Shown here: piece by piece, positions 1 to 6,630 of the stretch | Layout: each line of letters opens with the position of its first letter | How positions within the stretch are numbered: the first letter of the stretch is position 1 | DNA from: a virus | Lineage: Duplodnaviria; Heunggongvirae; Uroviricota; Caudoviricetes | DNA: 12,717 nucleotides | Strand: one strand, 5' to 3' | Virus record (IMG/VR): IMGVR_UViG_2681813421_000003 | Notes under the pieces: generated by a model | Databases searched by the model: none | What the model saw: the letters and a program-made list of their open reading frames with translations, nothing else | Told to the model about the DNA's origin: nothing | Program-made: the position numbers and the translations under genes

Positions 1-123
1 GAGCTGGTGGAGACGCGGGAACGACTGGTGAGAGACGCTGATGATTTTGTCGCAGTGGCGATCGCTGGTTTCAATCAGATGAATCGTGGTGGCCCGGCAG
101 GAAATGCCTTGGTGATGCACTAA
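1..123 (+). CDS. 3' end of an upstream gene (partial, unknown function)
   Basis: Frame 1 is open from the window edge to TAA at 121-123 (…ELVETRERLVRDADDFVAVAIAGFNQMNRGGPAGNALVMH*). Its position directly upstream of the replication initiator suggests a cII/YdaT-position gene, but there is no recognisable motif. Confidence 0.35.
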   Translation, partial: ELVETRERLVRDADDFVAVAIAGFNQMNRGGPAGNALVMH

Positions 124-146
124 AAGCACGGTGTTCGGAGTTTTTT

Positions 147-1094
147 ATGAGCAGCAAGCTTCATGGTCTTGTCTGGGAAGGGTGTGCCTTCACCGGCATG
201 ATCTTATCCAGGGTGGCAGTTATGGCTCGCCTTGCAGATTACAGCAATGACGAAGGTGTGTCATGGCCTGCAGTGGAGACCATTCGTCGTCAGATTGGGG
301 CAAAGAGTGAATCAACGGTTAAAGCTGCGATAGCAGAACTGGAAAAGAACGGCTGGCTGACGAAGGAGGAACGTAAGGTCGGTGGGCGTAATGAAAGCAA
401 TATCTACCGTCTTAATGTGGAAAAACTCGAAGCAGCAGCAGCGGCGGCGCGTGAGGCATATAAACCGAAAAGAAAAATTAGCCAGGCAAAAAATGACCCG
501 TCAAATATTGCCCCCTCAACGGTTAACCCATCAAATTTTGATGGATCAACCGTTGATAAAAAACAGTCGGATAGGGGGGCGATGGTTGGCCCCGATCCGT
601 CAGTATTAAAACCTGATCCGTCAGATAAAAGATCTTTTCGTCCGGAAGCTTCGCAACCGGACATGCAGACGGCTGAACAGGATTTTTTAACCCGACACCC
701 TGACGCGGTTGTGTTCAGTGCGAAAAAACGCCAGTGGGGTAGCCAGGAAGATTTAGCGTGTGCGCAGTGGATCTGGGGGCGAATCGTGAGTCTTTACGAG
801 CAGGCCGCCAGCGATGATGGCGAGATTTCGCGACCGAAAGAACCCAACTGGACCGCATGGGCCAACGACGTGCGCACAATGCGGATGCTGGATGGCAGAA
901 CTCACAGACAAATTTGTGAAATGTTTGGTCGGGTGCAGCGGGATCCATTTTGGGTAAAAAATATCATGAGTCCGTCAAAGCTTCGCGAAAAATGGGATGA
1001 ACTGGTTATCCGCCTGGGGCGTTCGTCTGTACAGCGTTGTGTGAATCATATTTCTGAGCCGGATACCGAAATTCCGCCGGGATTCAGGGGGTGA
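147..1094 (+). CDS. phage replication initiation / primosomal protein (lambda O-like, DnaT-like), N-terminal helix-turn-helix
   Basis: 315-aa ORF with a GGAG Shine-Dalgarno 6 nt upstream. The N-terminus (…VSWPAVETIRRQIGAKSESTVKAAIAELEKNGWL…) is typical of phage replication-initiator HTH domains. It lies immediately upstream of a DnaC-like loader and contains iteron-like repeats internally, as lambda O does. From memory it resembles Rac YdaU. Confidence 0.8.
   Translation: MSSKLHGLVWEGCAFTGMILSRVAVMARLADYSNDEGVSWPAVETIRRQIGAKSESTVKAAIAELEKNGWLTKEERKVGGRNESNIYRLNVEKLEAAAAAAREAYKPKRKISQAKNDPSNIAPSTVNPSNFDGSTVDKKQSDRGAMVGPDPSVLKPDPSDKRSFRPEASQPDMQTAEQDFLTRHPDAVVFSAKKRQWGSQEDLACAQWIWGRIVSLYEQAASDDGEISRPKEPNWTAWANDVRTMRMLDGRTHRQICEMFGRVQRDPFWVKNIMSPSKLREKWDELVIRLGRSSVQRCVNHISEPDTEIPPGFRG
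495..630. repeat. iteron-like direct repeats, putative origin of replication embedded in the initiator gene
   Basis: Four ~16-bp related repeats: gacccgtcaaatattg (495-510), aacccatcaaattttg (525-540), gatccgtcagtattaa (594-609), gatccgtcagataaaa (615-630), plus the palindrome gatcaaccgttgat (544-557). An A/T-richer stretch follows. The arrangement mirrors ori-lambda inside gene O. Confidence 0.5.
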
Positions 1095-1100
1095 CGTGTC

Positions 1101-1847
1101 ATGAAAAACATTGCGGCAGGTGGTGTTCTTGAGCGTATCCGTAAGCTGGCCCCACAGCATGTAATCGCGCCGTACCGGACAGTGGACGAGTGGCGCGAGT
1201 GGCAACTAGCAGAAGGGCGAAAACGTAGCGAGGAAATCAACCGCCAGAATCGCCAGTTGCGGGTGGAAAAAATCCTGAATCGTTCGGGCATCCAGCCTCT
1301 GCACAGCAAATGCTCGTTTGCGAATTATCAGGTGCAGAATGACGGGCAAAAACACGCGCTGAGCCAGGCAAAATCCATCGCTGACGAACTGATGACCGGG
1401 TGCACGAATTTTGTGTTCAGCGGTAAGCCGGGTACCGGAAAGAACCACCTTGCAGCCGCCATTGGTAATCATCTTCTGGCGAAAGGTCGCAGCGTGATTG
1501 TGATAACGGTGGCTGATGTGATGCTGGCGTTACACAACAGCTACGACAACAAAAACTCAGGCGAAAAATTTTTACAGGGGTTGTGTGATGTTGACCTGCT
1601 TGTCCTGGATGAAATCGGAATGCAGCGGGATACGCGCAACGAGCAGGTCACGCTGAACCAGATAGTCGACCGCAGAACGGCTTCGATGCGCAGTGTCGGA
1701 ATGCTGACAAACCTGAACCACGTAGCGATGAGTACGCTTCTTGGTGAGCGTGTAATGGACCGCATGGTCATGAACGGTGGTCGCTGGGTGAATTTTAACT
1801 GGGAGAGCTGGCGTTCGAATGTCAGGCACCTGAGGGTTGTGAAGTAA
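1101..1847 (+). CDS. DnaC-like replicative helicase loader (AAA+ ATPase)
   Basis: 248 aa with a Walker A motif (FSGKPGTGKNHLAAAIG) and Walker B (DLLVLDEIG). It is colinear with E. coli DnaC from MKN… through …LGERVMDRM…NFNWESWRS. From memory it resembles Rac YdaV. Confidence 0.9.
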   Translation: MKNIAAGGVLERIRKLAPQHVIAPYRTVDEWREWQLAEGRKRSEEINRQNRQLRVEKILNRSGIQPLHSKCSFANYQVQNDGQKHALSQAKSIADELMTGCTNFVFSGKPGTGKNHLAAAIGNHLLAKGRSVIVITVADVMLALHNSYDNKNSGEKFLQGLCDVDLLVLDEIGMQRDTRNEQVTLNQIVDRRTASMRSVGMLTNLNHVAMSTLLGERVMDRMVMNGGRWVNFNWESWRSNVRHLRVVK

Positions 1848-1868
1848 TTTTGTCCGGAGGAAATTTTA

Positions 1869-2630
1869 ATGGAAACCGTTTTTGACGCACTGAAAGCAAT
1901 GGGAAAAGCCACATCCATAGAACTTGCTGCGCGACTTGATATCAGTCGTGAAGAAGTGCTGAACGAACTATGGGAACTGAAAAAGGCTGGTTTCGTTGAT
2001 AAAAGCGCGTACACCTGGCGTGTGGCTGATAACAACGTTCAGCAGGAACAGCCAGCGCAGGCAGAACTGCCGGAAGAAACCTCCACGGCGACAGTAGCGA
2101 AAATCTCAGAGTGCGATTTAACCGCGACGATTGAACAACACGGACCACAAACGGCTGATGAGCTGGCTACATTGTTTGGTACCACATCACGCAAAGTGGC
2201 TTCAACGCTGGCAATGGCAATCAGCAAAGGACGCCTGATTCGTGCAAATCAGGACGGTAAATTTCGTTACTGCATGCCGGGCGATAATTTACCAGCAGAG
2301 CCGAAAGCAGCATCGGTAGCGGAAACTGATGGTAAAGCCTTTCCTCAGCCTGCATGTGTTGCGTTACCAGTACAGGAGGCTGCAACACAGGAAGATATTA
2401 AAACAGAAACTGTGGCGGACATTGTGCAGTCGCTGCCATCGTTTACTGAAACGCGAGCGGATGACCTGGTTTTACCATCGCTGCATATGGCAAACCGCGA
2501 ACTGCGTCGGGCGAAAAGTCATGCCCAGAAGTGGGAACGAGTCTGCGCCGCGCTGCGGGAGCTGAACAAGCACCGGGATATTGTTCGACATATTTTCGAT
2601 TCCTCCAGTCATATTGTGTCGGAAAAGTGA
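1869..2630 (+). CDS. hypothetical phage protein with N-terminal winged-helix-like domain (YdaW-position gene)
   Basis: 253-aa ORF with GGAGG 8 nt upstream. The N-terminal ~45 aa (…[29 protein letters not shown]) look like a wHTH; the rest is acidic and low-complexity. No function can be assigned from sequence. Confidence 0.65.
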
Positions 2631-2646
2631 TTCCTGGGGAGGGCTT

Positions 2647-3069
2647 ATGGCAAAAGTTTTTACACAAGAAGAGCGAGAAAAAATTAAAGGGCAGGTTGTT
2701 GAACTCGTACGCCAGAGTGGGCGTGAGACGTTACGGCAACTGGAAGTCAAGACAGGTGCGACAAGATATCTGATGAGCGTTCTCGCAAGAGAGCTGGTTG
2801 CCAGCGGCGATGTATACAACTCTGGTTACGGGTTATTCCCGTCTGAACAGGCGCGTAAGGACTGGCAAAATGCCCGTAAAAAACTATCAAGGGCAAAGGT
2901 GAAGAAACCGGTTGTGGTTGATCCTGACCTTATCTGGTCATTACCCGACGGAGAAATACGTCGTTACGACAGGCGTCTGAACATAATCTGTCGCGAGTGC
3001 CGGAAGAGTGAGGTTATGCAGCGAGTGCTGGCGTTTTATCAGGGTAATTTTCAGGAGGTGATGGCGTGA
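2647..3069 (+). CDS. hypothetical nin-region-like protein
   Basis: The tracked ORF 2581-3069 was trimmed to the ATG at 2647, which has GGGGAGGG 4 nt upstream. 140 aa, basic, with a C-terminal ICRECRK motif. Its stop overlaps the next gene's start (GTGA). Confidence 0.55.
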   Translation: MAKVFTQEEREKIKGQVVELVRQSGRETLRQLEVKTGATRYLMSVLARELVASGDVYNSGYGLFPSEQARKDWQNARKKLSRAKVKKPVVVDPDLIWSLPDGEIRRYDRRLNIICRECRKSEVMQRVLAFYQGNFQEVMA

Positions 3070-3479
3070 GGGTGAGGGTTTATATCGCTGGTCCGATGAC
3101 CGGGTATAAAAATTTCAACCGTGAGGCGTTCCACAAGGCGGAAGAGGAACTGAAACGGGAAGGGCATACAGTCTTGAACCCGGCAGTACTTCCGGACGGG
3201 CTGACACAGCCACACTACATGGATATCTGCATGGCGATGATTCGTTGCGTGGATGCGATTTACATGCTGCAAGGCTGGCAGCGGTCAGCAGGCGCTAAAG
3301 CGGAACTGGCTCTGGCGGAGAAGCTAGGGCATGTGGTTGTTTTTCAGAGGGGGCGATATGCCGATTCTCTGGTTTCAGGAGGTGTGGGAAAAAGAAATGT
3401 GGGAAGGTCTTGTGATTGTGGCCGAAACAGTTCTTTTATTATGGTCTGTGATTGCGTGTATTTTTATGATTTATTGTGA
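3066..3479 (+). CDS. DUF4406-like / nucleoside 2-deoxyribosyltransferase-like protein
   Basis: GTG start with AGGAGG 8 nt upstream. The N-terminal ~95 aa (VYIAGPMTGYKNFNREAFHKAEEELKREGHTVLNPAVLP…GWQRSAGAKAELALAEKLGHVV) match the family. The reading frame then runs ~40 aa further than expected for this family. Confidence 0.6.
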   Translation: MRVRVYIAGPMTGYKNFNREAFHKAEEELKREGHTVLNPAVLPDGLTQPHYMDICMAMIRCVDAIYMLQGWQRSAGAKAELALAEKLGHVVVFQRGRYADSLVSGGVGKRNVGRSCDCGRNSSFIMVCDCVYFYDLL

Positions 3480-3483
3480 ATGA
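3358..3483 (+). CDS. putative small hydrophobic peptide (41 aa), unannotated short ORF
   Basis: ATG at 3358 with AGAGGGGG 4 nt upstream. Encodes MPILWFQEVWEKEMWEGLVIVAETVLLLWSVIACIFMIYCE, with one predicted transmembrane segment. It overlaps the 3' tail of the DUF4406 ORF in another frame. Below the 60-aa cut-off of the ORF track. Confidence 0.25.
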   Translation: MPILWFQEVWEKEMWEGLVIVAETVLLLWSVIACIFMIYCE

Positions 3484-3510
3484 TGTGAATCTCGCGGTGG
3501 CCACTGAATT

Positions 3511-3553
3511 GCAACCATTACCCCCTGTGATGTAATTGTGGGGTAATGGTTGC
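3511..3553. repeat. perfect 14-bp inverted repeat with 15-nt spacer (hairpin or protein-binding site)
   Basis: gcaaccattacccc (3511-3524) pairs with ggggtaatggttgc (3540-3553). No T-run follows, so it is not a canonical intrinsic terminator. It sits in the intergenic gap upstream of the 3587 gene. Confidence 0.6.
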
Positions 3554-3586
3554 GCAGGCATAGCGACAGGACTGGATGAGAAAAAT

Positions 3587-4009
3587 ATGACGAAATTTAC
3601 CAGAGAGCAATTGATTGCTCATGCTAATGAAAGTGTGAAATCCATGAAATTTGCTGCGCGACAGACCGTGTTTAAGACTTCAAGAGTTGCCATTGAAATG
3701 GATCTTGCGCTTGCCCGTATTGCGCTTGCCTCACTTGAAGCAATGCCAGTTGCATGGTCCTGTGCTCACAATATGGTTTTGTTCAATGCTGAATCTGTTG
3801 CGGCATACGCAAAACACTCAGCCATTGCGCCAAAACCCCTGTACGCTGCGCAACCGGCATCACTTTCACATGAGGAAGAGTTGACAATGCTGGTTAAACA
3901 ATTGGTAAGTCAGTTGAAAAAAGCGAAACCAGATTGCAAATTACCGGATATGGCGATGGGGTATCTGGAGCGGAATGGGCTGATAAGCGCGGAGGATGTT
4001 TTACGATGA
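3587..4009 (+). CDS. hypothetical phage protein
   Basis: The tracked ORF 3536-4009 was trimmed to the ATG at 3587 (MTKFTREQLIAHANE…), because the 3536 start lies inside the inverted repeat. 140 aa, with no recognisable motif. Confidence 0.5.
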   Translation: MTKFTREQLIAHANESVKSMKFAARQTVFKTSRVAIEMDLALARIALASLEAMPVAWSCAHNMVLFNAESVAAYAKHSAIAPKPLYAAQPASLSHEEELTMLVKQLVSQLKKAKPDCKLPDMAMGYLERNGLISAEDVLR

Positions 4010-4089
4010 CCTGGCCGGAGGCATTCACAACGACAGGAATTGCAATGGCGGCAGCACTTGTTGTGTATTCGATTTGCCGCTGGGGATAA
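4006..4089 (+). CDS. putative small hydrophobic peptide (27 aa), translationally coupled
   Basis: ATGA stop/start overlap with the upstream gene. Encodes MTWPEAFTTTGIAMAAALVVYSICRWG. Below the ORF-track cut-off; there is no homology evidence. Confidence 0.2.
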   Translation: MTWPEAFTTTGIAMAAALVVYSICRWG

Positions 4090-4096
4090 AAACGGT

Positions 4097-4124
4097 TTGC
4101 AGTGAAAGGGGAGTTAAGTAGAAT
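4097..4124 (+). promoter_or_regulatory. putative sigma70 promoter of the hok transcript
   Basis: TTGCAG (4097-4102), a 16-nt spacer, then TAGAAT (4119-4124). The predicted start near 4131 places the 5' end exactly at the segment that is complementary to the 3' end of the locus. Confidence 0.4.
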
Positions 4125-4300
4125 TGCTGCGGGTGCTTGAGGCTATCTGCCTCAGGCATGAACACCAAAAGGCAGATAGAGAAAAGCCCCAGTTAACATT
4201 ACGCGTCCTGCAAGACGCTTAACATTAATCTGAGGCTCAATCTATGTCTCACAAATGTAGGTTAGCCTCTTACGTGCCGAAAGGCAAGGAGAAGCAGGCT

Positions 4301-4456
4301 ATGAAGCAGCAAAAGGCGATGTTAATCGCCCTTATCGTCATCTGTTTAACCGTCATAGTGACGGCACTGGTAACGAGGAAAGACCTCTGCGAGGTACGAA
4401 TCCGAACCGGCCAGACGGAGGTCGCTGTCTTCACAGCTTACGAACCTGAGGAGTAA
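4301..4456 (+). CDS. hok: Hok/Gef-family type I toxin (small membrane-depolarising peptide)
   Basis: 51 aa, MKQQKAMLIALIVICLTVIVTALVTRKDLCEVRIRTGQTEVAVFTAYEPEE, with the hallmark transmembrane helix followed by the conserved Cys and the RTG motif. It matches HokD/RelF-type peptides from memory. AAGGAG lies 9 nt upstream. An in-frame upstream ATG at 4244, with a GAGG Shine-Dalgarno, would give a 70-aa mok-like extended product. Confidence 0.85.
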   Translation: MKQQKAMLIALIVICLTVIVTALVTRKDLCEVRIRTGQTEVAVFTAYEPEE

Positions 4457-4463
4457 GAGACCA

Positions 4464-4485
4464 GGCGAGGGAGAAATCCCTCGCC
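4464..4485 (+). other. stable stem-loop with GAAA tetraloop in the hok 3' UTR
   Basis: ggcgaggga (4464-4472), loop gaaa, tccctcgcc (4477-4485): a 9-bp stem directly after the hok stop codon. Confidence 0.6.
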
Positions 4486-4524
4486 ACCTCTGATGTGTCA
4501 GGCATCCTCAACGCACCCGCACTT

Positions 4525-4546
4525 AACCCGCTTCGGCGGGTTTTTC
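4525..4546 (+). terminator. intrinsic terminator (hok 3' end); first copy of a duplicated 20-mer
   Basis: Stem cccgc / gcggg with a ttcg loop (4527-4540), followed by TTTTT. The 20-mer aacccgcttcggcgggtttt (4525-4544) recurs identically at 5372-5391. Confidence 0.7.
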
Positions 4547-4671
4547 GTCGCATAATGAGGTTGTAATTTTAGCTACCATTAGACTATCCTAAGGATCTCA
4601 AACAGATCTATTTTGCATCAAATTTGGTGCATGGCTTTGCCAATAATCGGAAAACAAAAGGACTCATTAGT

Positions 4672-4851
4672 ATGAGCTGCCCACTCAAAAAACACACGCG
4701 GTTGAGTATTCCGCCTCGCGATAAAAGCGTTGTGGCAGTCCCTCGCCCAGCGATTGATGAAAACTGCGCACATCGTGAACAAGTGAAAAATGCTTTTGAT
4801 TTCGGTTTTTCTCGTTATGAGAAAGCCATGGAAGAACTTTCAAAAGTGTAA
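4672..4851 (+). CDS. putative antitoxin partner of the Doc-family toxin (unclassified small protein)
   Basis: 59 aa, from the ATG at 4672 with AAAGGA 9 nt upstream; the tracked ORF begins at 4624 but has no Shine-Dalgarno. It ends 18 nt before the Doc-family gene. Not obviously Phd/YefM-like, so the call rests on position only. Confidence 0.45.
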   Translation: MSCPLKKHTRLSIPPRDKSVVAVPRPAIDENCAHREQVKNAFDFGFSRYEKAMEELSKV

Positions 4852-4869
4852 TGATGGGTATTGTGCTCT

Positions 4870-5355
4870 ATGGCTGAGATTGTTGAAGGAGTGCATTACC
4901 TTACGGTTGATGATCTTGTTGAAATCAATCGTTCCCTAATTGAATTACAGACGCCAGATGAGCCCGTTGGTGTTCTGAGTCCAGATAACTTAAGTTCTTC
5001 TCAGGCCCGTCCCAGCATGGTTCGATGGTATGAACAGACTAATGACATGTTTGTACTGGCATCGGTATTGATTGAAAGTCTGATTCAGAATCATCCGTTT
5101 GCTAATGCGAACAAACGAACAGCTATGATGGCTGGTTACGTCTTCTTGTTGTTGAATGGCTATGAGTTAACAGCACCAGGCGATGAAATCGTGGAAATGG
5201 CAGAGGGACTGGCCTGCAAAACCTATACTCGAGAAGATCTCGAGAACTGGTTGTGTTATTGGTCTCGCGCGTATGACAGCCGGGAATTATGTAAAACAGG
5301 CGCAACTATTGTTTTGTATGAAACTATCAAGCTTAAAATAGAACAGCAAAACTAA
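4870..5355 (+). CDS. Doc/Fic-family (death-on-curing) toxin
   Basis: 161 aa containing HPFANANKRTA, which fits the Doc-type motif HxFx(D/N)(A/G)NKR. Overall size and layout are typical of Doc toxins. Confidence 0.8.
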   Translation: MAEIVEGVHYLTVDDLVEINRSLIELQTPDEPVGVLSPDNLSSSQARPSMVRWYEQTNDMFVLASVLIESLIQNHPFANANKRTAMMAGYVFLLLNGYELTAPGDEIVEMAEGLACKTYTREDLENWLCYWSRAYDSRELCKTGATIVLYETIKLKIEQQN

Positions 5356-5371
5356 AGGTGCTTCCAATGAA

Positions 5372-5398
5372 AACCCGCTTCGGCGGGTTTTGTTTTTT
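5372..5398 (+). terminator. intrinsic terminator after the Doc gene; second copy of the duplicated 20-mer
   Basis: Stem cccgc / gcggg with a ttcg loop (5374-5387), followed by ttttgtttttt. Identical 20-mer to 4525-4544. Confidence 0.7.
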
Positions 5399-5470
5399 CC
5401 TGGCATTCTGGTTTACAATTCGCACGCCAGCCTGAACAACTGGCACCTGCTGCGCCAGCAGAGACAACCG

Positions 5471-5743
5471 ATGGCGCACAAAAACAAATTTCACAATTCT
5501 GATACCGACCTTGCCATCCGGCACGGGCGGCGTTCACACGCATTTAAAACCGACTGGTACCAACACCCACCATGTACTGAAGAACAGGCCGAATGGCTAA
5601 TTCATAACTACCGCAGGCGCGGATACGAGGTTAAGAAAGCCCTCAGCCTCGATTATCGTCACTGGATAATCTATGTCAGGCTCCCTTATTCCGAACGCCC
5701 ACCGCGTCCGTCCCGCACATTCCAGCAACGCATCTGGAGGTAA
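5471..5743 (+). CDS. hypothetical basic protein (orphan ORF at a deletion junction)
   Basis: The tracked ORF 5390-5743 begins inside the terminator, so the first plausible start is the ATG at 5471 (MAHKNKFHNSD…), giving 90 aa. Weak Shine-Dalgarno and no recognisable domain. Confidence 0.35.
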   Translation: MAHKNKFHNSDTDLAIRHGRRSHAFKTDWYQHPPCTEEQAEWLIHNYRRRGYEVKKALSLDYRHWIIYVRLPYSERPPRPSRTFQQRIWR

Positions 5744-5748
5744 CGTGC

Positions 5749-6183
5749 GGGTATTACTTCGACCTGTTCCGGTATCCCAACGGCACTGTTGATGTTTTCC
5801 GTGGCTGGCTGAGCTCACTGGGTAAAACCATTGCCTCAAAAGACGTGATGACCCGCACTGTGAAAATCAGCGGTGTGGGGCGTCCACATCTGGCAGAGGA
5901 AGGCACTGAAACCGTGAGCGTTACCGGGCTGACAGTAGCACCGGCATCTGCCAGTGTAAGAGTGGGAGCAACCACCACGCTGACCTTTACAGTAAAACCT
6001 GACGAAGCCAGTGACAAAGCGATCAGTGTGCATTCGACAGATCCACAGACTGCCACGGTGACCCTGAACGGGCTTGTGGCCACGGTGAAAGGCGTGAAGC
6101 AGGGCAGTGTCAGTATTGTGGGCATGACTTCTGACGGCGATTTTGTGGCAGTGGCTACGGTGGCTGTCAGCGCCGCAGGTTAA
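5749..6183 (+). pseudogene. V: major tail protein V, N-terminally truncated remnant (C-terminal Ig-like/Big_2 part retained)
   Basis: Frame 1 translation …[38 protein letters not shown]… is colinear with lambda gpV (…[39 protein letters not shown]…) through to the C-terminal Ig-like domain. There is no start codon or N-terminal domain; the frame is open from 5635 but similarity begins only around 5750. Confidence 0.7.
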
Positions 6184-6203
6184 CAGGACGATACTCATCA
6201 TTT

Positions 6204-6228
6204 GCCCCGGTTATCCGGGGCTTTTTTG
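6204..6228 (+). terminator. hairpin + T-run between V remnant and G
   Basis: gccccgg ttat ccggggc followed by TTTTTT (6222-6227). Confidence 0.5.
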
Positions 6229-6240
6229 CAGGTGGAGAAC

Positions 6241-6630
6241 ATGATGTTTCTGAAACAGGACACGTTTAATTATGAAAAACAGTCCGTGGTGCTCAGTGAG
6301 CTGTCCGGGCTGCAGAGAATTGAATATCTGACGTTTGTTCAGCAGCGAACGGCAAAGTTTGATGCCGGGGAGGGAGAGCTGCCGGGGGCTGAACGACAGA
6401 TTGCTTTTCTGCGGATGGGGATGGATATCAATGCCTGGCTGGTTTCCCGCTCACTGTGGAATGCGGAACAGTCTCAGGATGTTGAGACGCTTTACGCATC
6501 CGTTATTACAACATGGTCGTATGATGCCCTGGGGGCGGGGGCAGAGATGGTTCTGTCGCTGAGCGGTATGGGAGCCATTGAGAATGCCGGGGATTTGGAG
6601 CATGAGGTGCTGACGCCGGAAAAGTCCTGA
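6241..6630 (+). CDS. G: tail assembly chaperone G
   Basis: MMFLKQDTFNYEKQSVVLSELSGLQRIEYL… aligns with lambda gpG (MFLKTESFEHNGVTVTLSELSALQRIEHL…). The tracked ORF was trimmed to the ATG at 6241; 6244 is an alternative start, with GGAG upstream. Confidence 0.85.
   Translation: MMFLKQDTFNYEKQSVVLSELSGLQRIEYLTFVQQRTAKFDAGEGELPGAERQIAFLRMGMDINAWLVSRSLWNAEQSQDVETLYASVITTWSYDALGAGAEMVLSLSGMGAIENAGDLEHEVLTPEKS

What the first reader, a model, noticed from the sequence alone, without database searches (positions are those of the whole stretch)
4525..5398. Doc-family toxin cassette bracketed by two identical terminator hairpins, with an unclassified upstream partner
The 20-mer aacccgcttcggcgggtttt occurs at 4525-4544 (the hok terminator) and again at 5372-5391, exactly flanking an A/T-richer 847-bp segment. 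That segment carries a 59-aa ORF and a Doc-motif protein (HPFANANKRTA). The pattern looks like a moron inserted by recombination at a terminator, which was duplicated in the process. The upstream partner does not look like a Phd/YefM antitoxin, so this may be a non-canonical pairing. An imperfect palindrome tgcatcaaa/tttggtgca (4615-4632) lies in the cassette's promoter region and is a candidate autoregulatory operator.
Basis: partly seen in the sequence, partly recalled or inferred. Interest (0 to 1): 0.65.

Follow-up and report, generated by a model that had tools for sequence, protein, structure and literature searches.

The report
Doc toxin cassette with unclassified partner
Next to a hok/sok killer locus, a defective E. 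coli prophage carries a self-contained two-gene cassette: a Doc-family toxin and a 59-residue partner of an unclassified family that always travels with it. The "duplicated" terminator around the cassette is really two copies of a very common terminator at which prophage cassettes get swapped.

Summary
AACCCGCTTCGGCGGGTTTT occurs exactly twice (4525-4544, 5372-5391), around a slightly A/T-richer cassette that encodes a 59-aa protein (4672-4851) and a clear Doc-family toxin (4870-5355; TIGR01550 128.5 bits; motif HPFANANKRTA).

The second copy is not a duplicate of the hok terminator. Doc homologues carry the same or a compensated hairpin where there is no hok. The exact 20-mer occurs in at least 120 viral contigs, with about 90 unrelated left flanks. 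One phage (Evi) has a single copy with both of the window's flanks. Another (689R5) has two near-copies around unrelated cargo. The DNA right of copy 2 falls into at least four unrelated classes. So hok/sok and partner-Doc are two separate morons. Each ends in a generic terminator that acts as a recombination joint.

The partner matches no Pfam, NCBIfam, PADLOC or PDB family, and hhalign against P1 Phd gives probability 1.2%. It lies directly upstream of this Doc subfamily in 14/14 genomes from other genera and 80/80 viral contigs. AlphaFold predicts a disordered N-terminal half and one confident C-terminal helix, so it is probably a minimal antitoxin without a DNA-binding domain. Neutralisation is inferred, not tested. 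The proposed operator palindrome is no better than chance. This is a modestly interesting variant of a known kind.

The parts
4131..4306 (+). sok/hok leader region of the neighbouring type I toxin-antitoxin locus. This is a separate cassette, not part of the Doc module.
   Evidence: Rfam RF01794 sok, 121.6 bits against a gathering score of 59, E 7e-28.
4244..4456 (+). mok/hok reading frame. hokD itself is 4301-4456 by RefSeq annotation of the identical ETEC locus.
   Evidence: Pfam HOK_GEF 3e-23. RefSeq hokD at L005 5757-5912, which is window 4301-4456.
4525..4544 (+). Terminator copy 1: the hok transcript's own UUCG-tetraloop hairpin terminator. Its T-tail is short (TTTTTCGTCG).
   Evidence: Exact 20-mer. 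Hairpin -11.8 to -12 kcal/mol. The same 20-mer follows hok in phages that lack the Doc cassette: Evi, HannyBb and Stx2_14040. 32 of the 122 viral sites follow hok.
4561..4590 (+). Best candidate sigma-70 promoter of the cassette: TTGTAA, 18 nt, TATCCT (8 of 12 matches).
   Evidence: Relaxed hexamer scan. The same position in the diverged O157-type leader has TTGTGA-18-TATGCT, and these hexamers are conserved islands in a leader alignment that is otherwise only moderately conserved. The strict scan found no promoter here. Inferred, not shown.
4614..4631 (+). Imperfect palindrome TGCATCAAATTTGGTGCA. It is probably not an operator and may be a 5'-UTR RNA hairpin.
   Evidence: 8 of 9 positions complementary. 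Not above chance, 98/300 shuffles. Not conserved in the O157-type leader. In the type-3 leader the equivalent CGCGCCAGGTTGGTGCG keeps the pairing if G-U pairs are allowed, and a second hairpin, GGC(N3)GCC, is also kept.
4672..4851 (+). 59-aa partner protein, the putative antitoxin. It belongs to an unclassified family (PHROG 2208) with a conserved N-terminal L-x-IP-x-RDK motif and a C-terminal helix QVxNAFxxxFxRYxKAxxxLSKV.
   Evidence: phrog_2208 matched over its full length, 6.9e-41. No Pfam, NCBIfam or PADLOC hit. 38 representatives at 50% identity among 1.84 billion proteins. AF2: coil 1-33, helix 34-58 at pLDDT 94-96. Always directly upstream of Doc.
4870..5355 (+). Doc-family toxin, 161 aa (alternative TTG start at 4861). 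It has a conserved C-terminal extension, WLCYWSRxYDSRxLC, that P1 Doc lacks.
   Evidence: TIGR01550 DOC_P1 128.5 bits against a cut-off of 38.65. PF02661 6.6e-12. phrog_577 Doc-like toxin 1.8e-51. PDB 9vzc E. faecalis Doc 4.7e-13 and P1 Doc 3k33 5.6e-5. The extension is conserved in alignment A6.
5092..5124 (+). Catalytic motif HPFANANKRTA (Doc-type HxFx[D/N][A/G]NKR).
   Evidence: Aligns with HCFYNANKRTA of E. faecalis Doc and HIFNDANKRTA of P1 Doc. H(P/A)FANANKR is invariant in 20 of 20 homologues.
5370..5398 (+). Terminator copy 2, the cassette's own intrinsic terminator. The exact 20-mer is 5372-5391; the stem extends to AAAACCCGC/GCGGGTTTT and is followed by GTTTTTT. It is also the mosaic joint to the downstream phage DNA.
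   Evidence: Flagged as a terminator. -14.3 kcal/mol, z -3.25. The same or a compensated hairpin follows Doc in 15 of the 18 distinct loci examined, including loci with no hok. Homology with other prophages breaks exactly here, with at least 4 right-flank classes.

Best explanation
Window 4131-5398 holds two independent, adjacent accessory cassettes (morons) in the nin region of a lambdoid prophage.

1. [quoted passage not shown]
2. A self-contained two-gene unit with a weak promoter near 4561-4590, the 59-aa partner, a Doc-family toxin and its own terminator (copy 2).

The two terminators are identical because both are instances of a very common UUCG-tetraloop intrinsic terminator, AACCCGCTTCGGCGGGTTTT. 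Insertion did not copy one from the other. Because the sequence is shared, it acts as a short patch of homology at which lambdoid phages recombine. That recombination can insert, delete or exchange whatever lies between or beside the copies. It would explain the Evi-type single-copy site, the 689R5 alternative cargo, and the many different right flanks. The direction (insertion or deletion) cannot be decided from these data.

Functionally, the pair most likely works as a type II toxin-antitoxin module. Doc is a Fic-fold kinase that, by homology with P1 and Salmonella Doc, phosphorylates EF-Tu and arrests translation. The 59-aa protein is translated just upstream, probably with translational coupling (stop-to-start gaps of 3-10 nt in other genera). 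Its C-terminal amphipathic helix (residues 34-58) is proposed to fold onto Doc and block it, as the non-homologous C-terminal helix of Phd does. Its N-terminal half is disordered and has no recognisable DNA-binding domain. The antitoxin is therefore probably of a 'minimal' type, and classical operator autoregulation is doubtful.

Shown here: the sequence features, family membership of Doc, absence of Phd homology, strict two-way synteny, the mosaic joints, and the generic nature of the terminator. Inferred: toxicity, neutralisation, the EF-Tu target, promoter use, and recombination at the hairpin as the mechanism.
For: Terminator and mosaic structure:
- Exact repeat.
- Evi has one copy with both of the window's flanks.
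- 689R5 has two near-copies around an unrelated 130-aa ORF.
- In O121, O157:H7, O104:H4 and M19 prophages the cassette (87-96% identical) keeps both copies, while the DNA right of copy 2 differs.
- There are at least 4 unrelated right-flank classes, reassorted with 3 leader/left-context types.
- E. coli-type loci L160/L161/L174 have the cassette and copy 2 but no hok/sok and no copy 1.
- Two Xenorhabdus loci have the identical 20-mer after Doc, Citrobacter has the same 14-nt hairpin, and other genera have compensated variants such as CCCAC-TTCG-GTGGG.
- The 20-mer occurs in at least 120 viral contigs. Only 32 of 122 sites follow hok, and there are 94 distinct left and 104 distinct right flanks.

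Toxin:
- TIGR01550 128.5 bits, PF02661, phrog_577 and PDB Doc hits.
- Motif invariant in 20 of 20 homologues.

Partner:
- No known family. hhalign against P1 Phd gives probability 1.2%.
- The partner is followed by Doc in 14/14 genomes of other Enterobacterales genera plus Orbaceae. The partner precedes Doc in 80/80 viral contigs.
- Stop-to-start gaps are 3-10 nt.
- Distances between partner sequences and between Doc sequences co-vary, r = 0.87 over 153 pairs, not corrected for phylogeny.
- Of 99 loci, 97 have both genes intact, 2 have Doc broken with the partner intact, and 0 show the reverse.
- AF2 with two alignment depths gives a single C-terminal helix at pLDDT 91-96 and a coil N-terminus.
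- Phd neutralises Doc through a C-terminal helix that is disordered when free and uses hydrophobic hot spots (PMC9207808).
- The contexts of the module differ widely, from phage tail or KilA-N regions to plain chromosomal genes in Y. pestis, so the pair moves as a unit.
Against: - No experiment or complex model supports neutralisation.
- The partner has no DNA-binding fold, and the window's palindrome is no better than chance. How the operon is regulated is unknown.
- The best promoter candidate matches only 8 of 12 positions, and the strict scan found none. Expression could depend on read-through of copy 1, whose T-tract is short.
- The decay asymmetry (2 vs 0) is too small to be statistically meaningful.
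- The co-divergence of the two proteins is what any two linked genes would show.
- Recombination at the 20-mer is inferred from joints. Joints exactly at a terminator could also arise because selection only keeps recombinants that preserve whole transcription units.
Confidence: 0.66

Rival explanations
1. A single insertion of the cassette at the hok terminator duplicated the 20-bp target, in the manner of a target-site duplication, so copy 2 is a copy of the hok terminator.
For: Exact 20-bp direct repeats at both ends. An Evi-type site with one copy and identical outer flanks. Lower GC inside the cassette.
Against: Copy 2 is present after Doc where hok and copy 1 are absent (L160/L161/L174). 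It is present as the identical 20-mer in Xenorhabdus, and as compensated hairpins in other genera. The 20-mer is a generic terminator with about 90 unrelated contexts. The same bracket holds unrelated cargo in 689R5. No transposase, integrase or terminal inverted repeats lie in or next to the cassette.
Confidence: 0.08
2. The 59-aa protein is not an antitoxin. It could be a co-factor, specificity subunit or regulator of a Doc-like kinase that serves the prophage, for example in host takeover, superinfection exclusion or abortive-infection sensing. The kinase would then not be constitutively toxic, and the pair would not be a classical addiction module.
For: The partner has no homology to any antitoxin and no DNA-binding domain. 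This Doc subfamily has an extra conserved C-terminal segment of unknown role. PHROGs files Doc-like toxins under moron/host takeover. No autoregulatory operator is evident.
Against: Gene order, size, tight spacing and strict two-way synteny are those of type II TA pairs. The Doc catalytic motif is fully canonical. The only decayed loci have lost Doc, not the partner. A disordered protein with one C-terminal amphipathic helix is the classic neutralisation-domain architecture.
Confidence: 0.2
3. The palindrome at 4614-4631 is the autoregulatory operator, bound by the partner or by the partner-Doc complex, as in phd-doc.
For: It lies in the leader about 41-58 nt upstream of the ATG. Some other lineages have better palindromes between clear -35 and -10 boxes, for example Providencia TAATGTAA-N6-TTACATTA, with arm changes in L023 that preserve the symmetry.
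Against: 98 of 300 shuffles do as well. The right arm is in an indel absent from the O157-type leader, although the proteins are about 90% identical. It lies downstream of the best conserved promoter candidate. No DNA-binding fold is predicted. The changes relative to the type-3 leader fit RNA pairing with G-U pairs better than DNA dyad symmetry.
Confidence: 0.1

Closest known systems
Phd-Doc of bacteriophage P1 and Salmonella (type II toxin-antitoxin; PDB 3k33, 3dd7)
   Same: The toxin family and catalytic motif are the same. A small gene lies immediately upstream of the toxin. The partner is predicted to be largely disordered with a C-terminal amphipathic helix of about 24 residues, the same architecture as the Phd neutralisation domain (PMC9207808). 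Both are carried on a temperate phage.
   Different: The partner shows no sequence relationship to Phd/YefM: no Pfam or NCBIfam hit, and hhalign probability 1.2%. It lacks the folded N-terminal DNA-binding domain. No convincing operator is present. The toxin is about 35 residues longer, with a conserved WLCYWSRxYDSRxLC tail.
Composite Doc modules with non-Phd antitoxins, e.g. TasA-TasB (MazE-Doc) of Bacillus thuringiensis pGI1 (PMC1626090) and E. faecalis Phd-Doc with a beta-sheet DNA-binding domain (PMC13034048)
   Same: They show that Doc toxins pair with different antitoxin families ('mix and match'). A non-Phd partner is therefore an expected kind of variation.
   Different: Those partners have recognisable DNA-binding folds (AbrB/MazE-like or a beta-dome). 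This one has none that could be detected.
PaaA2-ParE2 (with PaaR2) of an E. coli O157:H7 cryptic prophage (PMC8630535)
   Same: Both are prophage-borne and have a small antitoxin that does not itself bind operator DNA. The abstract says only that this TA system sits in an O157:H7 cryptic prophage and has an unusual transcriptional regulation; the details about PaaA2 are from my own knowledge.
   Different: That system has a third gene, the regulator PaaR2, and a ParE toxin. Here no conserved third gene accompanies the pair, because the flanks differ between loci.
Class I Fic proteins with a separate inhibitory small protein (VbhA-VbhT, YhfG-Fic)
   Same: A small upstream ORF supplies an inhibitory helix to a Fic-fold enzyme (own knowledge).
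   Different: The defining (S/T)xxxE(G/N) inhibitory motif is absent from the partner alignment; the conserved stretch is FxRYxKA. The enzyme has the Doc-type motif with K in place of G, so it is a kinase rather than an AMP transferase.
Morons of lambdoid phages, i.e. promoter-gene-terminator units ('The moron comes of age', PMC3594210; Juhala et al. 2000, from own knowledge)
   Same: The cassette is an independent transcription unit with its own terminator. It differs in base composition, shows presence/absence polymorphism among related phages, and has mosaic joints at the unit's edges.
   Different: Nothing essential differs. The point worth noting is that two adjacent morons and many unrelated ones use the very same 20-nt terminator, which coincides with the recombination joints.

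Membership tests
Doc / death-on-curing toxins (TIGR01550; Fic/DOC PF02661) | Profile score above the curated cut-off | tested here: met
   TIGR01550 128.5 bits against 38.65. PF02661 46.6 bits against 24. phrog_577 1.8e-51.
Doc / death-on-curing toxins (TIGR01550; Fic/DOC PF02661) | Doc-type catalytic motif HxFx(D/N)(A/G)NKR, with K where Fic AMPylases have G | tested here: met
   HPFANANKRTA at residues 75-85, aligned with the motif of solved Doc proteins. Invariant in 20 of 20 homologues.
Doc / death-on-curing toxins (TIGR01550; Fic/DOC PF02661) | Kinase activity on EF-Tu and growth arrest on expression | not testable with these tools
   Inferred from homology only (PMC9207808).
Phd/YefM antitoxins | Sequence membership (Pfam PhdYeFM_antitox or an NCBIfam model, or profile similarity to P1 Phd) | tested here: not met
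   No Pfam or NCBIfam hit at E <= 1. PDB profile searches find no Phd. hhalign of the family alignment A3 against P1 Phd gives probability 1.2%.
Phd/YefM antitoxins | Folded N-terminal alpha/beta dimerisation and DNA-binding domain | tested here: not met
   AF2 with 12 and with 37 sequences gives coil for residues 1-33 and no strands.
Phd/YefM antitoxins | C-terminal segment that folds into a helix on the toxin | tested here: inconclusive
   A helix at 34-58 is predicted with pLDDT 91-96.
Type II toxin-antitoxin module (generic) | Two small adjacent co-directional genes, closely spaced, and conserved as a pair | tested here: met
   An 18-nt gap to the ATG in the window. Gaps of 3-10 nt in other genera. 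Partner followed by Doc in 14/14 genomes, and Doc preceded by the partner in 80/80 viral contigs.
Type II toxin-antitoxin module (generic) | The antitoxin neutralises the toxin by direct binding | not testable with these tools
   Indirect support only: decay asymmetry of 2 vs 0 and co-divergence r = 0.87.
Type II toxin-antitoxin module (generic) | Autoregulation through an operator in the promoter | tested here: inconclusive
   The window's palindrome is not above chance and not conserved. Some other lineages have better-placed palindromes.
Class I Fic antitoxins (VbhA/YhfG type) | Inhibitory motif (S/T)xxxE(G/N) | tested here: not met
   Absent from alignments A2 and A3. The conserved C-terminal stretch is QVxNAFxxxFxRYxKAxxxLSKV.
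Phage moron | Own terminator at the 3' end | tested here: met
   Copy 2 is flagged as a terminator and folds at -14.3 kcal/mol. The hairpin is retained after Doc across genera.
Phage moron | Own promoter | tested here: inconclusive
   Only an 8-of-12 candidate at 4561-4590, although its position is conserved in the diverged leader.
Phage moron | Present or absent between otherwise related phages, with atypical base composition | tested here: met
   Evi single-copy site, 689R5 alternative cargo, and presence in 125 of 5426 E. coli genomes. GC 41-46% against 48-54%.
Transposable-element insertion with target-site duplication | The repeat is created by the insertion; transposase and terminal inverted repeats are present | tested here: not met
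   Both repeat copies exist independently in hok-only and Doc-only contexts. No transposase ORF or terminal inverted repeats.

The most novel reading that the evidence does not exclude
The 59-aa protein founds a previously undescribed family of minimal Doc antitoxins that lack a DNA-binding domain. The family runs from the Enterobacterales to Orbaceae and includes Y. pestis and the O104:H4, O157:H7 and O121 prophages. Neutralisation would rest on one C-terminal helix that evolved independently of Phd. The conserved N-terminal IPxRDK motif and the Doc C-terminal extension (WLCYWSRxYDSRxLC) would form a second, subfamily-specific contact or a degradation/regulation signal. In addition, a single ubiquitous 20-nt terminator hairpin would act as a portable recombination joint that lets such cassettes hop between phage genomes.
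Probability: 0.45. Interest if true: 0.45.

Novelty: new variant of a known kind. Interest (0 to 1): 0.36.

Why it matters
Doc toxins are already annotated in these prophages, but the partner is labelled 'hypothetical' everywhere: RefSeq WP_001277774 and WP_000119356, and PHROG 2208 'unknown function'. Automated toxin-antitoxin finders that need a known antitoxin domain would therefore likely score this Doc as an orphan.

Showing that a 59-residue, largely disordered protein with no Phd ancestry neutralises Doc would add an independent solution to the same inhibition problem. It would also give a short natural peptide template for Doc inhibition, an approach already pursued with Phd peptides in Salmonella (PMC9207808, PMC10728895). 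And it would assign a function to a gene present in outbreak-lineage prophages.

The terminator result is a clean, countable example of how identical generic terminators mark, and probably mediate, cassette exchange in lambdoid phages. It confirms an existing concept rather than changing it.

Tried and rejected
No complex model was obtained.
- The search for related loci with the diverse alignment A3 failed because no stretch was conserved enough. The closer alignment A2 worked.
- PDB profile searches with the partner family gave only insignificant hits: ribosomal protein S25 at E 0.2, and the HU-like A104R arm at E 0.4. Both were rejected as chance.
- PADLOC gave no defence-system assignment for either protein beyond weak Fic-like hits.
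- Literature searches found no paper describing this partner or pair. Searches covered the RefSeq accessions, Doc with prophage and hokD, Doc with Y. pestis, and novel antitoxin with Fic/Doc. The Erwinia and Photorhabdus surveys describe canonical Phd-Doc or FIC classes only. The hok survey preprint does not mention Doc or terminators. This library omits most subscription journals, so absence is not proof.
- The plasmid collection gave one distant hit only, in a Proteus record. The phage collection gave only Salmonella SW-37 (72%) and a Pseudomonas phage.
- A transposon or target-site-duplication reading was considered and rejected, as was a class I Fic-antitoxin reading (see the membership tests).
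Full report

Yes. AACCCGCTTCGGCGGGTTTT occurs exactly twice in the 12,717-nt window, at 4525-4544 and 5372-5391 on the + strand. None of 200 dinucleotide-preserving shuffles reached two matches. The identity stops at the 20 nt on both sides. The 847 bp is the start-to-start spacing, and the DNA between the copies is 827 bp. Both copies fold into a CCCGC-UUCG-GCGGG hairpin. Copy 2 has a longer A/U-extended stem (-14.3 kcal/mol, z -3.25) and a GTTTTTT tail. Copy 1 has a shorter T-tract. GC is 41-46% inside and 48-54% outside. The palindrome is one base off, at 4614-4631.

**2. Context**

Window 1-5774 is 100% identical to a lambdoid prophage of ETEC O6:H16 strain 2014EL-1346-6. The gene order there is: LexA-like repressor, Cro/CI, YdaT, replication genes, DUF1627, DUF977, hokD, the 59-aa 'hypothetical protein', the 'death-on-curing family toxin', a small ORF, DUF968/YdfU, RusA, Q. 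The cassette therefore sits in the nin region, directly after hok/sok (Rfam sok 121.6 bits; HOK_GEF 3e-23).

**3. The toxin**

The 161-aa product is a secure member of the Doc family:
- TIGR01550 128.5 bits against a cut-off of 38.65.
- PF02661 6.6e-12.
- phrog_577 'Doc-like toxin' 1.8e-51.
- Solved E. faecalis Doc 9vzc 4.7e-13, and P1 Doc 3k33/3dd7/3kh2 down to 5.6e-5.

Its HPFANANKRTA aligns with HCFYNANKRTA and HIFNDANKRTA of those structures. H(P/A)FANANKR is invariant in 20 homologues. Compared with P1 Doc, it carries a conserved C-terminal extension, WLCYWSRxYDSRxLC.

**4. The partner**

The 59-aa protein hits nothing in Pfam, NCBIfam or PADLOC at E <= 1. It hits nothing meaningful in the PDB by profile. 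A profile of 37 family members aligned against P1 Phd gives hhalign probability 1.2%.

The partner does match PHROG 2208 ('unknown function') over its full length, which supports the ATG at 4672. The family is small: 15 clusters among 5.8 billion proteins, and 38 representatives at 50% identity among 1.84 billion. All members are about 47-62 aa, or have that module at the C-terminus of a slightly longer ORF. Two segments are conserved: L-x-IP-x-RDK near the N-terminus, and QVxNAFxxxFxRYxKAxxxLSKV at the C-terminus.

AlphaFold2 with either 12 or 37 sequences gives the same picture. Residues 1-33 have no secondary structure, and there is one helix at 34-58 with pLDDT 91-96. The class I Fic-antitoxin motif (S/T)xxxE(G/N) is absent.

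**5. Are the two genes a unit?**

- Starting from the partner, 14 loci were recovered from species genomes of Kluyvera, Serratia, Citrobacter, Hafnia, Rosenbergiella, Morganella, Yersinia pestis, Providencia, Xenorhabdus and an Orbaceae bacterium. In all 14 the partner (56-75% identical) is followed by a Doc homologue (58-74% identical). In 13 the stop-to-start gap is 3-10 nt; in the 14th (L017) the gap is 80 nt because Doc is broken. None has hok upstream.
- Starting from Doc, 80 of 80 viral contigs with this Doc subfamily (70-100% identical) have the partner directly upstream. 43 have hok and 37 do not; 36 of those 37 have enough upstream sequence to judge.
- Pairwise divergences of the two proteins track each other (r = 0.87, 153 pairs, not corrected for phylogeny).
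- Among 99 loci, 97 have both genes intact, two have a broken Doc with an intact partner (L017, L174), and none shows the reverse.
- The neighbours differ completely between genera: HNH/DUF6246 in Kluyvera; KilA-N, ORF6N and a Dit tail protein in Xenorhabdus; HhH-GPD and HD-domain genes in Y. pestis.

So the pair moves as a two-gene module. This is the standard genomic signature of a type II toxin-antitoxin pair. Neutralisation itself is inferred.

**6. What the repeated terminator really is**

Four lines of evidence show that copy 2 belongs to the Doc cassette and was not copied from hok.

- (a) Most Doc homologues in other genera end with a hairpin terminator within 0-45 nt of the stop. In both Xenorhabdus genomes it is the identical 20-mer. 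In Citrobacter it is the same 14-nt hairpin. Elsewhere the stems carry compensating changes, such as CCCAC-TTCG-GTGGG or CCCGC-TCAG-GCGGG.
- (b) Three E. coli-type viral contigs (L160, L161, L174) carry the cassette, with a third leader type, directly after the ORF that precedes hok/sok in the window. They have no hok/sok and no copy 1, but they do have copy 2.
- (c) hok is followed by the same 20-mer in phages that lack the Doc cassette: Evi, HannyBb and Stx2_14040.
- (d) The 20-mer is a generic terminator. Of the 122 sites, only 32 follow hok, and there are 94 distinct left and 104 distinct right 25-nt flanks.

**7. The terminator as a mosaic joint**

- Phage Evi has one copy, with the window's left flank on one side and the window's right flank (GTTTTTTCCTGGCATTCTGG...) on the other. 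This is a perfect 'empty' or 'deleted' site.
- Phage vB_EcoS-689R5 has two copies, the left one decayed (GCGttTTTT), around a completely different cargo, and then the same right flank. The cargo is a 130-aa lipoprotein-like ORF, phrog_16082.
- The cassette is present in 125 of 5426 complete E. coli genomes. It is always chromosomal and 87-100% identical.
- In O121, O157:H7, O104:H4 and M19 prophages, homology to the window begins at the partner's ATG and ends exactly at copy 2.
- Across 55 E. coli-type loci, the DNA after copy 2 falls into at least four unrelated classes. Three were tied to annotated neighbours: DUF968/YdfU, DUF1367, and a minus-strand HTH/RelE pair. These classes are reassorted with three leader/left-context types.

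The data fit two neighbouring morons, each with its own copy of a common terminator. Exchange, insertion or deletion happens at that shared sequence. Whether the Evi type arose by deletion or the window type by insertion cannot be decided.

**8. Regulation**

The strict promoter scan finds nothing in 4545-4671. A relaxed scan gives TTGTAA-18-TATCCT at 4561-4590. Its counterpart, TTGTGA-18-TATGCT, sits at the same place in the O157-type leader. That leader is homologous but strongly diverged, and the hexamers are among its conserved islands.

It is matched or beaten by 98 of 300 shuffles. Its right arm lies in an indel absent from the O157-type leader, although the partner proteins are about 90% identical. 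Compared with the type-3 leader, the base changes preserve pairing if G-U pairs are allowed, and a second small hairpin next to it is also preserved. That hints at a 5'-UTR RNA structure, but with only two sequence types this is weak.

Some other lineages have better palindromes between clear -35 and -10 boxes, notably Providencia and Morganella. Operator control somewhere in the family therefore cannot be excluded, but the partner has no predicted DNA-binding fold.

**9. Most likely mechanism**

By homology, Doc phosphorylates EF-Tu and stops translation (PMC9207808). The partner is made just upstream from the same transcript. Its C-terminal amphipathic helix has a hydrophobic face (V38, F42, F46, Y49, M53, L56, V59) and a conserved Gly45. 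It most likely folds onto Doc and blocks it. This is analogous to the Phd 52-73 helix with its hydrophobic hot spots and Gly kink, but evolved independently.

Sitting beside hok/sok in a prophage, the pair plausibly stabilises the element or contributes to phage exclusion. That role is speculative.

**10. Comparison with what is known, and novelty**

The toxin is a known kind and is already annotated as such in RefSeq. Doc toxins with non-Phd antitoxins are known, for example MazE-Doc (PMC1626090). So are prophage antitoxins that do not themselves bind DNA, such as PaaA2 (PMC8630535). Morons bounded by terminators are textbook (PMC3594210).

What appears to be undescribed is this particular partner family and its strict association with a Doc subfamily that has a C-terminal extension. 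I found no paper on it, but the library is incomplete. I rate it a new variant of a known kind, with interest about 0.36.

Noticed in passing
window 5773-5774 (junction); ORFs 5845-6183 and 6202-6630: The window is 100% identical to the ETEC O6:H16 prophage only up to 5774. From 5773 on it matches phage tail genes: a Big_2 Ig-like C-terminal part of a tail protein, then the lambda-type tail assembly chaperone G. The start of the DUF968/ydfU gene is thus fused to the middle of a tail gene, and Q, lysis, terminase and head genes are missing. None of 5426 complete E. coli genomes spans this junction. It is either a large internal deletion, which would make this a defective prophage, or an assembly chimera.
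   Followed up: partly
window 5468-5743 (+): A small ORF just after terminator copy 2 matches PHROG 1212 ('unknown function', 1.3e-36). It is conserved after the terminator in Evi and 689R5. In 689R5 the corresponding ORF is annotated 'toxin to Rem'. No Pfam or NCBIfam hit.
   Followed up: no
Doc residues about 125-141 (window about 5242-5292) and homologues in L010-L023: This Doc subfamily has a conserved C-terminal extension, WLCYWSRxYDSRxLC, with invariant W127, W131, R133, D136, R138 and C141. P1 Doc lacks it. Its role is unknown; it could be a contact for the partner's conserved N-terminal IPxRDK motif.
   Followed up: partly
L015, L017, L018, L019, L023 (Providencia/Morganella), about 60-100 nt upstream of the partner ATG: There is a clear promoter, TTGACT-N17-(CAT)TATAAC, with a near-perfect palindrome (TAATGTAA-N6-TTACATTA) in the spacer. 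In L023 the arms change but keep the symmetry (TAATGAAAG-N4-CTTTCATTA). This is a much better operator candidate than the one in the window.
   Followed up: partly
L016 (Yersinia pestis NCTC5923, NZ_UAVH01000009.1), module at 2501-3167: Y. pestis carries the same partner-Doc pair (66% and 68% identical) between ordinary chromosomal genes (HhH-GPD glycosylase, HD-domain protein). Its motif reads HAFANANKR instead of HPF.
   Followed up: no
L008 (E. coli O104:H4), 3735-4313, minus strand: In the O104:H4 outbreak-lineage prophage the Doc cassette is followed immediately by a convergent HTH/RelE-ParE type II pair. Three toxin-antitoxin loci (hokD, partner-Doc, RelE-like) therefore sit side by side.
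   Followed up: no
window 5333-5524 and 5352-5543 (minus strand): RefSeq annotates a 63-aa 'hypothetical protein' on the opposite strand that runs across terminator copy 2 (L005 6789-6980). It is probably a spurious call, because it spans a terminator and a mosaic joint.
   Followed up: no
L002 (phage vB_EcoS-689R5), 1996-2388: The alternative cargo in the same terminator bracket is a 130-aa protein with a lipoprotein-like signal sequence (phrog_16082). It has faint similarity to Cor superinfection-exclusion proteins (E 0.007) and to Lpp-type lipoproteins.
   Followed up: no
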